A DNA stretch of 63,935 nucleotides, counting the filler, from Octopus bimaculoides (taxonomy: Eukaryota): NCBI RefSeq assembly GCF_001194135.2. It is 5 parts of 5 records of this genome, joined end to end, with 100 filler letters (N's around TTAATTAATTAA, not from the genome) between each part and the next. Parts side by side here need not be neighbours in the genome. Positions count along the whole stretch, not along the records: positions 1 to 26,559 come from NC_068981.1; positions 26,660 to 40,687 come from NC_068983.1; positions 40,788 to 57,913 come from NC_068982.1; 2 more parts are not named here. One strand, given 5' to 3'. This document shows, piece by piece, positions 6,689 to 56,500 of this stretch. The translations under genes were made by a program, and so were the position numbers. The notes under the pieces are model-generated. The model saw nothing but the letters and a program-made list of their open reading frames with translations, had not been told where the DNA came from and did no database searches. Each line of letters starts with the position of its first letter. The first letter of the stretch is position 1.

Positions 6689-6772
6689 GCAGTACTACCG
6701 TTTCAAGCGGCTTCATTTAATTGAACAATGCAATCATTACATCAATTTAAATGCAGCGCTATCATCAGCTGC
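6689..6772 (-). ncRNA. Type I hammerhead ribozyme (Penelope-type minimal stem III, long stem II)
   Basis: Minus strand: GCAG-CUGAUGA-U-[AGCGCUGCAUUUAAAUUGA...UCAAUUAAAUGAAGCCGCUU]-GAAAC-GGUA-GUA^CUGC. Core intact; stem I GCAG/CUGC. Confidence 0.75.
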
Positions 6773-6966
6773 ACAAATAAATAGGATTTTAATCAGTCGG
6801 ACACAGTAATATAATTTTACTCAAATACTTTAACAGAGCAAGAAGATGGAAGAAATTCATGTTGTCGCTATTGTAGCTAAGAATATACTACACTTCCAAG
6901 AAAGGCATGAAGCTTACTGGAGTCATAGCTTGTAAAGGATTGTGTGGTTCATTTCTNNNNNNNNNN

Positions 6967-7310
6967 TCAATTTCACGAGCAGGTTGTTCCCTTGATCGGA
7001 TCAACTGGAGCCCTCATCGCCGTAAGCGACGGAATGCCAATATATATATATATATGTATGTATGTTATGGGTACAAGTGTCTTTGGAGCGTTCAGCCGCA
7101 TGTACGTCAATTTCACGAGCAGGTTGTTCCCTTGATCGGATCAACTGGAGCCCTCATCGCCGTAAGCGACGGAATGCCAATATATATATATATATGTTCA
7201 ACGGAACAACCGGTTCGTGAAATTAGCGTCCATGTGGCTGACCACTCCACAGACACGTGTACCCATAACGTAGTTCTCAGGGATATTTAGCGTAACACAG
7301 ATTGTGACAA
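6967..7310. repeat. Direct and inverted copies of a SINE-like repeat fragment
   Basis: TCAATTTCACGAGCAGG...GGAATGCCAA occurs at 6967 and 7107; 7197-7269 is a diverged reverse complement of 7064-7135. Confidence 0.85.
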
Positions 7311-7479
7311 GGCTATATCTATCTATCTATCTATCTATCTATCTATCTATCTATCTATCTATGAAAATACATATATATGTGTATATATGTATATACGTGT
7401 GTGTGTGCGTGCGTGCGTGCGTGTGTGTGTGTATGCGTATTTATACTTTGTGCCACATGCGCTTCTTTGCGTCACATGG

Positions 7480-7849
7480 GGTCAACCCTCCCCCTCTCTC
7501 CTCTCTTCCTCTCACACCTACTTCCTCCCACACACCTCCCTTGCTCTGACACCTCCTTCCTCTCTTCACTCTTACCTACCTTAAACCTTCCACCCTCTCC
7601 CTTCATCGTTACCCATCCCTCGTTACTCCACCCCTACACATTCAACCCCACCATCCCTATACATCCCATCCCACCCTATCCCATCGTTTAGACCCAACCT
7701 TTGATTCCCCACACCCCTACGCCACCATACCACACCACACCACACACTACCACACCACACACCACCACACCACACCACCACACCACACACCACCATACCA
7801 CAACACAGCACATCACACAACCCCGCAGACACTAGTACCAACCACTTTC
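7480..7849. repeat. C-rich low complexity / (CACCA)n
   Basis: Direct reading; abuts an N gap. Confidence 0.85.
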
Positions 7850-51730: not shown

Positions 51731-52639
51731 TGTATGTATGTATGTATGCATGTACACATACATACATACAGAGAAAGAGAGAGAGAGAGAGATAAAAGGA
51801 GACTTACATATGCATATTTGTCTACCACTTTCTACACATAAACAATTAGTAAACTCCACGCTATATTAGAAGAAATTTACGCAAGGCGCCGCTTGATTGA
51901 AAAATAAACTTCTAAACCGTACAACCAGCCTACTCTTAATGTGTACGTATGTATGTATGTGTGTATGTATGTATTTATGTGTGTGTGTGTGTAAGTGCGT
52001 ATGTGTTTTTTTTTTATCTAGTTCCAAGTTACATAAGTGACTCTAAATACAGGAGTGTCTTGTGTTGCACTTATCGTCCAGACATAAACATTTTGGAGAC
52101 CTTTTCAATAATTTCTCTATTTATTATAATATTCTAACGATTAAAGATTTTATAAACATCGATCTTTTATTTGTTCCACTCGTTTGACTGCATGCATACT
52201 GGAATTCCACTTTTTAGGAATTTTGTGGTTTTAGTCAAATTAGCCACTTAAAGTCAATTTTGACAAATACTTTGTCTCGTTCTCACTTTGTTGATTTCAA
52301 TCGAATAGTTCAGTGAGTTACTTCCCTTCTTCCTTTTCAGTGACACAAATCATTTATAGTATTTACACCGTTTATTCTGTCTTTTTTATCGAACTGTTAT
52401 ATAACGGAGACATAAATAAACCAATTCTATTTGTCAAACGAGGGTGAGGGTGGCAAACACACACACACACACACACACACACACACACACACACACACAC
52501 ACACACACACACACACACACACACACACACACACACACACACACACACACACATAAATATTCGCTTTTTCATGTTGAGAAACAGATGATATTCAGATAAT
52601 ACCAAATAAGGAATAAGGAGGCTGATCAACTAGTTCAAA

Positions 52640-53025
52640 ACTATTGAAACCAAATACCTTTCGTCAGTTTTCCTGGGCGTTTGGCCTCCATAACCTTTTG
52701 TAACTGCCTCACCAAGTTGGTATAATACTCTCCAATGATGGTGTGGCCCTTTTGAAGGTCCACAATGCTTTTTGCATCCCAGAAAACTGAGGCCGTCACT
52801 TTCCCTGCAAATGAAACGATCCTGGCCTTCTTTGGAGCAAGTGAGGAAGGGTGTTTCTACTGCATGAATTGTCTATTTGTTTCTAGCTCAAAGTAATGAA
52901 GTCAACACCGGCTTAGGAAACCTGATGTAATCAGCCTGGTGCGTTTTTGATCAGGTGTCACAATACGTGCCATCCACCAAGGAGAAACCTTCGTCATGTC
53001 GAGATCATTGTGCAGAATGTGTGTG
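52640..53025 (-). mobile_element. mariner (irritans-like) transposase fragment
   Basis: ILHNDLDMTKVSPWW..LTPDQK-like, APKKAR..AGKVTASVFWDAK..KGHTI.GEYY..L.QL..KRPGKL. Confidence 0.85.
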
Positions 53026-53158
53026 TATGCACATACATACATACATACATACATACATGCATGCATGCATGCATGTATGTATGTATGTATGTATGTATGT
53101 ATGTATGTGTGTATGTGTGTACACACATACATGCATATATATATATATATATATATAT

Positions 53159-53593
53159 ATATATTATTTTATTTAAAAGAGTTCCAACTCTGTCTGTTTT
53201 TTTTATGTTTTATGTATATTCTTGTCAAATTAATGTGGGATATAGAATATGGAATATATAATATATAATATAAAAATGGATGGTACAATGAAATGAAGTA
53301 TTGAATGTCTTATTGAATAAGTCTGTCAGATACCGGCCATGATGAATATTGAAAATACGTATTCACCTTTATATATTTAATCCTTTATATTGAACACTCA
53401 ATATTTCAAATATTCAATAAGACATATTCCATATATTCAATAAGACATTCAATACTTCATTTCATTGTACCATCCATTTTTATATTATATATTATATATT
53501 CCATATTCTATATCCCACATTAATTTTACAAGAATTTTCATAAAACATAAAAAAACAGACAGAGTTGGAACTCTTTTAAATAAAATAATATAT
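53159..53593. repeat. Near-perfect inverted repeat with about 160-bp arms (fold-back / MITE-like)
   Basis: 53159-53319 is the reverse complement of 53434-53593 with only a few differences. Confidence 0.93.
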
Positions 53594-56500
53594 TCCTATA
53601 TACACGATCATACAAAACCCTTCTTTTGTATTTATTTTTACTCATATATATATATATATATCCACACATAAACGTATATATAACTAATGAATTTTTCACC
53701 AACTTGATCATTTAATCAGTCAGATGCTTCCAACAGATTCATTGACCAAACGATTGATCAAATAATTGATTAGTTAATTAATATGTTAGTTTGACCGCTG
53801 AGTAAGGGAAGTGAAATACAACTAGTACGTATGAGCTAAAAATTCCTCACTTCCAGTGTACAAAAATCTATCTATCTATCTATCTATCTATCTATCTATC
53901 TATCTATCTATCTATCTATCTATCTATCTATGTGTCTGTCTTTCTCTCTCTCTGTGCATATATATATATATATATATATATACACACACACTTTTATATT
54001 AATCAACTTAATGCGATCATATCGCTGTTTTTCTATATTATTATTGTGATATATTGTTGTATTTAGTGTTTCATTTATTAACATTTATTAACTGCTGTCT
54101 CTTTGTATATTCTGTCTTACCTGTATTGGCAGTCAATTCTTTTATATATATATAATTTTTACTTTCAAAATGTACATTTTAGTATGTGTATTTGATTACT
54201 CGTGTCGCAAATTACGATGAGGCTGTGTGCTGTGCTGAGAATTTTCAACAAAGCGAAACGCATCCAAGGTTGTCTCCCCTGTTCACGTATGAAGATAATA
54301 TTCGTCACATACTCACATTTTTATATACATATATTCTAAATATACTTTGGTTTTTCATTCCATTAATCATTTAATGAAATATTGTTTTCAATTACATCAT
54401 TAAATTATTTTATGATTTTCATAGCAGTTGCTCATACAATTTTTAATCTACAAAAGTATCTGTATATATTCATGCATTTCTTTAGTTCATTAGCCTGTCT
54501 CAGTACATTCATTCTTTTATTCATTCGTATCATATCTCATCATTTGGCTTTTTTCAGCTGCACACTTAGATTACACTAAGATACATTTGTGGAAAACAGA
54601 TACAGTTTCTTGCAAAACTGGTATAGTATATTTACCATTCGTTTGGTGTCTGTGTATTTGTGAGAACAGCATGGATTTAGTGTCACTCTATATAAGCTGA
54701 AATAAAACTATTTCTGTACTTGTGTGTATTGTGTTTTATATCTGTTGCACGAGTTTGGTCAGCTTTTCATGTTGTGAAATCCCATCTAACATTTATAATT
54801 CTTCATCCTGAAACATTTTCATGCCATCAGAGATATAGACAAACTATACATTAGTTGTGATATCATATTGAATTTATTCTTTGTCAAAATTCACTTTTCA
54901 TGTGATTAATATTTATTTAATTTAAATTACATTTCCTGTGATCGATACTGGAGGCAGTCAAATTGTTCTTTCAATAATTTCTTCACAGTGTAAGACTTAC
55001 TTCACTTACGTTCTTAGTCTTGCCTATATGTGCACATACATAAATACATCCATACCTATAAAATACAACCCCTCCACACGGAGAGTTCAGGTCATGATTA
55101 TAGGAACAGTAAAAAAAATGTTTACTAAGTAAACTGCATAATGTTAAACTAAGTGGTAAATATATTATCTAAGGGTAAAGGGCTTTTATGATTTAACCTC
55201 TTATCTCTGAGGAAGTGCACTTAAAGTATTTTGTAGATATACCTCGATCTACTTAAAAGCCAATTTCTTGTTAAAGCTAAAATATATAAAAACGATAGAT
55301 TTATTATTTCCTGTGTTTTCAACATCTGAAATTAATCGCAGTGGAGGTTAAATACAATAATTAGGTGAGAAAATATCAAGAATTAGGTTACATTATTCTT
55401 TGATCACACAGACAAGGGGAACGATTCTGAACGTTTCTGAATAAGTAGTCTTCATCAGCTGATGCAGAGTCATCGATATTTGTGACTAGGATTGTAGTAA
55501 TTGTTTGACTATGTAGAAAATGTTGTTAGTAAAATAATATTGAGGAGCACCAGGAAATGCGGTTAATTAATAGTTTAATTATAAAGGGCTGCTGACCATA
55601 TATTTAAGTAGTAAAACATTGGACTTTAATATTTTAACAGCAGAAATTATCACAGGGATTAAATGGTGTAAAATGAGAAATTTATAAGGTTAATTAAAGC
55701 TAAAAAATTCTTTTTTTTTCTGTAAACGGGTGACAAGGGAGATAACTCTGAATTTTGTAAATTAATGTGAAGTTGAATGAAAGAGTTCGAGGTATCAGCT
55801 CTCGCTACTCTTAAGATTAAAAGCTATTGCCGAAGCCTGCACATGATTGCTTGGCCTGTTAGAAAGAACAGCCAAATAGTTCTTAACTTACATCATATCG
55901 TCTTTTAGAATAACATTGAATGATGCAGTTGGTTTTACACATTGCTTAAAAAAAAAAAAGAAAAAATGAAAACTTGGATAATCATGACCGAAATTGCCTT
56001 TGGTTATAGATCTCTTTAATGAGATACGAAATATAACTTCACATCAACACTTGAAACTTAGTAATGGAAACTTTCATTACCACCAGATAGTTTATAATCT
56101 ACATTCTACGTCGAGATCGAACATTGAGTCATTAACCATTAACAAACATTTCAAAGCCAAAATTTTTGTCAATGCCATTAGTTTTTTATATTTATTGACA
56201 AAAATTTCATAATTTCTAATCATGCCATTTCTTTCAACTCTACATGGCGCTTAAATTAAACTTCCATTTTTCATCAGAAAGAATACTTATGTCTCATACG
56301 ATATCAAATTTCATCGTGATTAAAAAAAATCAAGTTTTTATACATCTCAAATTCACATTGCATTTCAGACATGTGTAATTTGTTAAAAATCGTTTTCTAT
56401 GTAAATCTTAGTAATCTACTATTACTTTGATGGTAATAATTATTTGTAACATTATTGCAAATTTATCAATACTGTGCTGCAAATATTTTTTACACGAAAT

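What the first reader, a model, noticed from the sequence alone, without database searches (positions are those of the whole stretch)
6689..55462. Dispersed repertoire of Penelope-type minimal hammerhead ribozymes in unrelated short repeats
Seen: about nine separate loci fold by eye into the same type I hammerhead architecture (stem I - CUGANGA + usually one extra nt - stem II - GAAA - very short, often palindromic stem III - NUH - stem I). They share almost no primary sequence outside the core, which implies several independent repeat families. Established: minimal hammerheads with palindromic stem III mark the pLTRs of Penelope-like elements and non-autonomous retrozyme-like RNAs, and can cleave as dimers. 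Inference: this cephalopod genome carries multiple ribozyme-bearing non-coding retroelement families that standard annotation would miss. I do not know whether they have been catalogued in Octopus.
Basis: partly seen in the sequence, partly recalled or inferred. Interest (0 to 1): 0.8.

Follow-up and report, generated by a model that had tools for sequence, protein, structure and literature searches.

The report
Penelope-type hammerhead remnants in octopus repeats
Six to eight short stretches here match the pattern of a small self-cutting RNA (hammerhead ribozyme) and are likely leftover tails of Penelope-like jumping genes, a known association; one sits in an extremely common repeat whose copies nearly all carry an unusual change in the cutting centre, and cutting is untested.

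Summary
Mostly real, mostly known. Six loci fit a type I minimal hammerhead, two more look decayed. Five score ≥16 against a mean of 0.43 in 299 shuffles. Rfam misses all of them at its cut-offs. One apparent locus is instead the tail of a published Octopus Naiad element. No Penelope ORF lies beside any locus. Two match the Hydra-clade signature of Craig 2021, which already lists an O. bimaculoides hammerhead; dispersed minimal hammerheads are known since 2014, in molluscs too. Relatives of locus 50679-50724 occur as ~129-nt tandem and inverted units, typical of Penelope-like elements. The new part is locus 30956-30991. It belongs to a very abundant ~210-nt repeat (13,786 and 9,621 contigs in two organisms). 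Core position 6 reads U instead of the conserved A, with no A variant listed. Apart from CpG-type changes, the listed variation falls on free positions 7 and 17. That hints at selection (p=0.03 to 0.09), not proof. RNA reads show no pile-up at the cut site. The scan noted hammerhead-Penelope links in at least 29 other genomes, nothing on this DNA.

The parts
6689..6772 (-). Locus a: hammerhead motif with exact core, 4-bp stem I, U-U at the base of a long stem II hairpin, imperfect 8-nt stem III palindrome, GUA site; Hydra-clade-like
   Evidence: compared by eye with Craig 2021 File S2; partial Rfam HH9 match 14.8 bits, below cut-off 52
13129..13194 (-). Locus c: probable decayed hammerhead; exact core, 4-bp stem II, 3-bp stem I, but G at position 17 and an imperfect palindrome
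13575..13654 (-). Locus d: decayed hammerhead; C3 changed, 8-bp inner stem II, perfect 8-nt palindrome, GUA site, 2-bp stem I
20200..20440 (+). Locus e2: remnant of the 3' tail of a Naiad-type Penelope-like element, inverted partner of e; no hammerhead
   Evidence: motif from the published Naiad_Obim tail matches at 20251-20268
20560..20800 (-). Locus e: Naiad 3' tail remnant; its apparent hammerhead boxes are not conserved in e2, so it is not a hammerhead; e and e2 face each other across a microsatellite tract
   Evidence: match at 20713-20730; 0.01 expected by chance
27763..27837 (-). Locus f: decayed hammerhead; two core changes, 8-10-bp stem II, perfect 8-nt palindrome, GUA site, stem I lost
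30848..31060 (-). Element g: about 210-nt very-high-copy repeat with TA-rich sequence on both sides, lying just 3' of a SINE-like repeat; 5' edge from the depth drop at 31060, 3' edge judged by eye
30956..30991 (-). Locus g hammerhead motif: 4-bp stem I, core with U at position 6 (30984), variable position 7 (30983), extra A, 4-bp stem II with G10.1-C11.1, GAAA, CG palindrome, U16.1, position 17 (30960) A/U/C
50677..50805 (+). Element i: one ~129-nt unit of a repeat whose relatives occur as head-to-tail and inverted copies
50679..50724 (+). Locus i hammerhead motif: 5-bp stem I, 5-6-bp stem II, GUU site; G8 and C15.2 are changed in this copy but mostly intact in relatives (inferred from codons)
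51693..51727 (-). Locus j: exact core, U-U pair, 3-bp stem II with tetraloop, perfect 8-nt palindrome, GUC site, 2-bp stem I; a ~60-nt island between oppositely oriented microsatellites; closest to Hydra-clade hammerheads
   Evidence: Rfam Hammerhead_1 12.9 bits, E 1.3, cut-off 34
55426..55462 (-). Locus k: probable decayed hammerhead; exact core and GAAA-CG-UU, weak stem II, one mismatch in stem I

Best explanation
The window holds six clear and two decayed type I minimal hammerhead motifs in unrelated short repeats, which are likely the 3'-terminal (pseudo-LTR) remnants, or short non-autonomous derivatives, of several Penelope-like retroelement (PLE) families. Shown: the motifs exceed chance; two structural types are present (an 8-nt palindrome type, a/d/f/j, two of them with the Hydra-clade U-U signature, and a 4-nt ACGU type, g/i/k); g and i are multi-copy families; relatives of i occur in tandem and inverted copies. 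Inferred mechanism: a PLE protein primes reverse transcription about 110-130 nt downstream of the hammerhead and inserts at AT-rich DNA; early truncation leaves a 60-210-nt stub that still holds the hammerhead. In tandem copies two motifs would pair through the stem III palindrome and cut slowly as a dimer, perhaps helped by the PLE protein, trimming the element RNA from longer transcripts. The solitary copies in this window are likely inactive. Family g likely spread with an attenuated core (U6), which fits the published result that hammerhead cleavage is dispensable for PLE insertion in vitro.
For: Shuffle tests. Architecture matches the published consensus: extra nucleotide after A9, G10.1-C11.1 and palindromic 15.2-16.2 in g and i. 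a and j carry the CUGANGAU...UGAA form found in 14 of 26 Hydra-clade rows of Craig File S2, and j has the same ACUC/GAGU stem III as 5 of them. Family i: 19 spurious-ORF hits, 10 of 19 with units spaced 40-43 aa, 4 of 19 with an inverted copy turning at stem II; one stem II pair reads U-A in 8, C-G in 7 and U-G in 3 of 30 units. Element ends lie 114 (i) and 132 (g) nt from the start of stem II, close to the 111-118-nt initiation site of the anole PLE. A bona fide Octopus PLE tail (Naiad) lies in the window in inverted arrangement. PLEs are abundant in octopus: 31 recently active families in O. vulgaris. Family g: 13,786 (X1) and 9,621 (X14) contigs laid; position 7 and position 17 vary, with no T>C place (no G17 at 3% or more) in either contig set.
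Against: No PLE RT or GIY-YIG match in 138 stop-free flanking fragments of 38 aa or more. None of five window motifs occurs in the Craig consensus files (line breaks can hide matches). No tandem copy inside the window. All 10 tandem hits of family i come from unnamed ENA records, not shown to be this species, and ORF calling favours in-frame tandems. The stem II double change joins two CpG-decay products, so it is weak covariation. Nearness to microsatellites is not significant (P=0.075). RNA reads over g show no pile-up of starts or ends. For a, c, d, f, j and k no second family copy was examined. The depth peak on g partly reflects where this copy best matches the family.
Confidence: 0.78

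Rival explanations
1. Families g and i are self-standing retrozyme-like elements: tandem copies are transcribed, cut by dimeric hammerheads into ~130-210-nt monomers, circularised and re-inserted by a borrowed reverse transcriptase.
For: Strict ~129-nt head-to-tail units with one hammerhead each in 10 of 19 relatives of i; the window copy equals one unit. g is a short, ORF-free, very abundant unit present in RNA at about 180 reads per million. A 2026 preprint derives animal retrozymes from PLE pseudo-LTRs (abstract and first part read).
Against: Described animal retrozymes are 170-400 nt and carry canonical hammerheads. Inverted copies point to PLE-type insertion. No start/end pile-up; only a 2-read go-back joint in X21. 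This rival overlaps the best explanation: it differs in requiring a circular RNA step.
Confidence: 0.13
2. The hammerhead in family g is a dead relic: A6 was lost in an ancestor, and the family spread as a passenger with no selection on the fold.
For: A natural A6C variant has low activity, below 0.1 per min. All 44 rows seen of the 2014 alignment and all 34 rows of Craig File S2 keep A6. Constrained positions are not significantly more conserved than flanks (0 of 29 vs 11 of 121, p=0.09). Absence of G17 needs only about two master-lineage changes, so it is weak alone.
Against: Within the 36-nt motif the only listed non-CpG polymorphisms lie at positions 7 and 17 (0 of 29 constrained vs 2 of 7 free, p=0.03; 44 rows were hidden). 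This rival concerns function only and is compatible with PLE origin.
Confidence: 0.45
3. The motifs are chance matches in AT-rich repeat-laden DNA, folded by eye.
For: A relaxed descriptor finds 1.7 hits per shuffled window; e and b fail; c and k are weak; folding z-scores are unremarkable for most loci; Rfam gives no hit at cut-off.
Against: 0 of 299 and 0 of 1000 shuffles reach the observed counts; family data for g and i keep the structure.
Confidence: 0.03

Closest known systems
Minimal hammerheads of metazoan Penelope-like elements (Cervera and de la Pena 2014, PMC4209133; main text parts 1-2 of 4 and supplement part 2 of 3 read)
   Same: Type I, tiny palindromic stem III, extra nucleotide after A9, G10.1-C11.1, many sequence-unrelated families per genome, mostly solitary copies; mollusc examples (Lottia, Crassostrea).
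   Different: No cephalopod found in the searched supplement (file 1 could not be searched). Family g has U6, absent from the 44 rows seen.
Hydra-clade PLE hammerheads, including Hydra-1_oBim (Craig et al. 2021, PMC8557442; passages and supplement parts 1-2 read)
   Same: U-U at the base of stem II, 3-4-bp stem III, hammerhead about 100 nt from the 3' end, (TA)n insertion preference; a and j fit this form.
   Different: Window loci differ in sequence from Hydra-1_oBim; j, d and f have a perfect palindrome with no loop nucleotide; no ORF is attached.
Naiad_Obim (Craig et al. 2021)
   Same: Loci e and e2 match its 3' tail and form an inverted pair around a microsatellite.
   Different: Naiads lack canonical hammerheads; e is therefore not part of the hammerhead set.
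Animal non-LTR retrozymes (Cervera and de la Pena 2020, PMC7229834, abstract and passages; Li, Clavereau and Pollet 2026 preprint 10.64898/2026.07.22.740005, first part and passages)
   Same: Non-coding tandem units with one type I hammerhead each; solitary monomers occur.
   Different: Those units are 170-400 nt with canonical hammerheads and proven circular RNAs; unit i is ~129 nt with a minimal motif, and no circle is shown.
Poseidon element PAc of Anolis (PMC11167929; passages)
   Same: Element end about 110-150 nt beyond the start of stem II; AT-rich targets; no RNA-seq reads ending at the cut site.
   Different: PAc is autonomous and tested in vitro (protein-assisted cleavage); nothing here is tested.

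Membership tests
Type I hammerhead ribozyme | Core C3 U4 G5 A6 N7 G8 A9 and G12 A13 A14 | tested here: inconclusive
   Exact in a, c, j, k; one change in d, g, i; two in f. In i the change is private (26 of 30 related units have a G-starting codon at position 8).
Type I hammerhead ribozyme | A at core position 6 (family g) | tested here: not met
   U in the window; no variant row at 30984 in four runs; at most about 12% could hide in the 44 unlisted rows.
Type I hammerhead ribozyme | Stems I and II enclose the core; NUH triplet | tested here: met
   a, g, i fully; d and j with 2-bp stem I; f lacks stem I; c has G17. In family g position 17 is A/U/C.
Type I hammerhead ribozyme | Rfam model score above cut-off | tested here: not met
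   0 hits at gathering score; best local scores 12.9 and 14.8 bits; none for g and i.
Type I hammerhead ribozyme | Self-cleavage | not testable with these tools
   No start/end pile-up in two RNA-seq runs over g; such libraries also showed none for the active anole motif.
PLE minimal hammerhead | Palindromic 15.2-16.2 / loop 3 allowing dimer pairing | tested here: met
   Perfect in d, f, g, j, k; imperfect in a, c; CpG-decayed in i.
PLE minimal hammerhead | Extra nucleotide after A9 and G10.1-C11.1 | tested here: met
   g, i, c; a, f, j have a mismatch at the base of stem II instead, as in Hydra-clade motifs.
Penelope-like element | RT plus GIY-YIG ORF attached | tested here: not met
   0 of 138 flanking fragments matched a PLE domain in Pfam; expected for truncated stubs, but it leaves membership inferred.
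Penelope-like element | Partial tandem and inverted copies | tested here: met
   Family i relatives: 10 of 19 tandem, 4 of 19 inverted; e/e2 inverted pair. Not examined for a, c, d, f, j, k.
Penelope-like element | Insertion bias to (TA)n and microsatellites | tested here: inconclusive
   Median distance 116 vs 380 nt, P=0.075; one loose-end consensus of g runs into (AT)n.
Non-LTR retrozyme | Tandem 170-400-nt units with canonical hammerheads | tested here: not met
   No tandem in the window; unit i is ~129 nt with a minimal motif.
Non-LTR retrozyme | Abundant linear and circular monomer RNAs | not testable with these tools

The most novel reading that the evidence does not exclude
One of the most abundant short repeats of octopus genomes (family g, likely 10^4-10^5 copies) is an unrecognised non-autonomous Penelope derivative that carries a working hammerhead variant with U in place of the conserved A6, kept under selection as a slow, dimer- or protein-dependent ribozyme; and the ~129-nt tandem family i makes ribozyme circles smaller than any described animal retrozyme.
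Probability: 0.25. Interest if true: 0.65.

Novelty: new variant of a known kind. Interest (0 to 1): 0.38.

Why it matters
The repertoire itself extends a known pattern to octopus and shows that Rfam misses it, so part of the large 'unclassified SINE/unknown' fraction of octopus repeats (893 unclassified recently active SINE families in O. vulgaris) may be Penelope-derived. The open question it touches is what PLE hammerheads are for: a family that reached very high copy number with a changed catalytic core, yet varies mainly where the ribozyme tolerates change, is a natural test of whether cleavage or only the fold is selected.

Tried and rejected
No whole genome is held, so no genome-wide scan or family consensus was possible. 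Exact-pattern scans found nothing in metagenome contigs (i motif, g motif) or prokaryotic genomes. Protein searches with frames across g and a second frame across i found nothing; this is weak evidence. The run search listed no RNA holder; this blank is not evidence. Lünse et al. 2017 (about PLE hammerhead variants) is not held, so U6 may already be described there; I know its content only by recall and use none of it. Paper searches for 'hammerhead' with 'octopus', 'cephalopod', 'octopus bimaculoides', 'A6U' and the U6 core word listed no octopus catalogue; the O. vulgaris repeat paper has 0 occurrences of 'hammerhead' or 'ribozyme' in its main text (its supplement was listed, not read); the giant squid paper counts 235 Rfam hammerhead-1 hits. 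Locus e was dropped (Naiad tail), b (half core) too, and the CTGAAGA boxes at 14281 (inside an ORF fragment that by recall resembles a non-LTR nuclease end) and 48005 (no GAAA). The candidate at 31903 lies at the start of a mariner-like frame. The reversed and complemented controls are one control, not two. Rfam at E≤10 over the whole window showed only microsatellite-driven hits in the 150 of 199 rows listed. Earlier-findings look-ups by place and by the g and i sequences returned nothing.
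Full report
Setting. The window is AT-rich, gene-free-looking animal DNA full of microsatellites and transposon debris. No assembly is held.

Is it there? A type I descriptor allowing one core mismatch returned five loci (a, d, g, i, j; scores 16-24). In 299 dinucleotide shuffles made in 1-kb blocks the mean at score 16 or more was 0.43 and the maximum 3; without a score cut it was 1.69, with about 2% of shuffles reaching five. 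A second test, GAAA followed by a perfect 6-nt palindrome and UH, with stem II and a core of up to two mismatches, gave 5 against 0.29, 0 of 1000 shuffles; d, f and j are among them and two I judge chance. Hand parsing adds c and k as probable decayed copies and removes e and b. So six loci are solid and two doubtful, not nine. They share only simple repeats with each other. Rfam finds none at cut-off; j scores 12.9 bits against Hammerhead_1, g and i nothing. The hammerhead fold is near the minimum-energy fold only for g and i, as expected for decayed copies and for motifs that need a partner.

Two structural types. Loci g, i and k have the 4-nt ACGU type of stem III; g, i and c have one extra base after A9 and G10.1-C11.1. 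This is the published consensus of metazoan PLE minimal hammerheads. Loci a, d, f and j have an 8-nt palindrome; a and j read CUGAUGAU...UGAA, the form of 14 of 26 Hydra-clade rows in Craig 2021 File S2, and j shares the ACUC/GAGU stem with five rows. That table already holds an O. bimaculoides hammerhead (Hydra-1_oBim), different in sequence from all window loci. Predicted self-duplex energies of the palindromes of d, f and j are -7 to -11 kcal/mol, which would allow dimer pairing.

Locus e is something else. It has an inverted, roughly 70%-alike partner 300 nt away across a microsatellite, and the partner lacks both core boxes. An 18-nt motif from the 3' end of the published Naiad_Obim consensus (seen) matches both copies, with 0.01 matches expected. 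These are Naiad tails, a PLE clade reported to lack canonical hammerheads.

Family i. A stop-free frame across the motif found 19 spurious predicted proteins: 2 O. bimaculoides, 11 unnamed ENA, 6 Logan. Ten of 19 hold head-to-tail units 40-43 residues apart, all from ENA records of unknown organism; four of 19 hold an inverted copy that turns at stem II. The window copy is exactly one unit. Read as codons, 26 of 30 units start with G at position 8 and 17 of 32 keep the CG palindrome, with 12 more showing the two CpG-decay products, so this copy's defects are private. One stem II pair is U-A in 8, C-G in 7 and U-G in 3 of 30 units; the other 12 are mismatched or truncated, and both changes could come from CpG decay, so this is weak covariation. 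Tandem plus inverted copies are PLE hallmarks.

Family g. One laying of 341 nt at 80% likeness drew 13,786 contigs from organism A (X1), 9,621 from organism B (X14), and 2,359 and 2,158 RNA reads from two runs of organism A, about 180 per million, equal on both strands. Summed depth over the motif is 5-9 x 10^4 times that of the flank; the tool warns this is no copy number, so 10^4-10^5 copies is an inference. The peak on the motif partly reflects where this copy best matches the family. Position 7 reads U in 41-53%, G in 17-35%, the rest C. Position 17 reads U in 34-39%, C in 7-11%, the rest A; neither contig set has any T>C place, so G17 is under 3% there (each RNA run has one unlocated T>C place). 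No variant is listed at position 6. Forty-four rows were hidden, but the shown rows imply that a hidden one is below about 12%, and a loose-end consensus also reads U6. So U6 is the family state. All 44 rows seen of the 2014 alignment and all 34 rows of File S2 keep A6; a natural A6C variant cuts at under 0.1 per min. Leaving CpG-type changes aside, 0 of 29 constrained and 2 of 7 free motif positions are polymorphic (p=0.03), but against flanks (11 of 121) p=0.09. This suggests, and does not prove, that the fold was kept after A6 was lost. No pile-up of read starts or ends was found; the same was reported for the active anole motif, so it weighs little.

Link to PLE proteins. None of 138 stop-free same-strand fragments within 1.5 kb of the candidates matched a PLE domain in Pfam; the one hit above a curated cut-off was a mariner transposase piece. 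Microsatellite proximity was inconclusive. The PLE origin therefore rests on architecture, family arrangement, spacing to the element end (114 and 132 nt, against 111-118 nt in the anole element) and the abundance of PLEs in octopus.

How it likely works. Shown: motifs, families, arrangements. Inferred: PLE-primed reverse transcription starts about 110-130 nt 3' of the hammerhead and often stops early, leaving stubs; tandem copies would cut slowly as dimers (published for other species), possibly protein-assisted; solitary, mutated copies such as those here are likely inert. Family g likely amplified with an attenuated core, which is compatible with cleavage being dispensable for insertion in vitro.

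Novelty. Dispersed, sequence-diverse minimal hammerhead families are known since 2014, in molluscs too, and one octopus example is tabulated. I found no octopus catalogue in five paper searches, and the 2026 O. vulgaris repeat annotation does not mention ribozymes in its main text. The family-wide U6 core was not in anything I could read, but the main variant survey (Lünse 2017) was unavailable, as were file 1 and part 1 of the 2014 supplement and the preprint's supplements. Verdict: a real but largely expected repertoire, with one variant family worth a cleavage assay.

Noticed in passing
window 20200-20290 (+) and 20690-20775 (-): The Naiad tail copies keep a hairpin (GGUGUC/GAUAUC in e, GAUAUC/GAUAUC in e2) whose loop could pair with an upstream AUGGU, a possible pseudoknot; by eye the published Naiad_Obim tail has the same elements. 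Rfam gives no match. Earlier scan notes propose twister-like folds in other animals' Naiad tails; I could not fit a twister here by eye.
   Followed up: partly
window 37458-40612 (-): Broken Ty3/Gypsy-like retrotransposon: protease-, RT-, RNase H- and integrase-like frames in pieces (recognised by recall, not searched).
   Followed up: no
window 31491-31802 (-), 40809-41255 (-), 46732-47010 (-), 52644-52856 (-): Mariner-like transposase fragments; the last matches Pfam Transposase_1 at E 1.5e-9.
   Followed up: partly
window 1867-2697 (+) and 21459-22353 (-): Helitron-like helicase/Rep fragments (recognised by recall; weak STPR hit).
   Followed up: no
window 14143-14445 (+) and 60710-61132 (-): Frames resembling the C-terminal nuclease end of R4/Dong-type non-LTR elements, next to trinucleotide repeats (by recall).
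   Followed up: no
window 30048-30227, 31113-31292, 38145-38315, 61135-61188: Dispersed copies of a SINE-like repeat, 75-85% alike; element g lies directly 3' of the 31113-31292 copy.
   Followed up: no
window 53198-53319 and 53434-53555: A 122-nt inverted repeat, 98% complementary, with 114 nt between the arms; possibly a young MITE.
   Followed up: no
window 30975: The first loop-2 base of family g is changed in 28-32% of RNA reads but 7-10% of DNA contig depth; may mark a preferentially transcribed subfamily or a contig-weighting effect.
   Followed up: no
P0005: Family i sequence forms the N-terminus of an annotated O. bimaculoides 'dystrobrevin beta isoform X1' model, likely an annotation artefact or an exonised repeat.
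   Followed up: no
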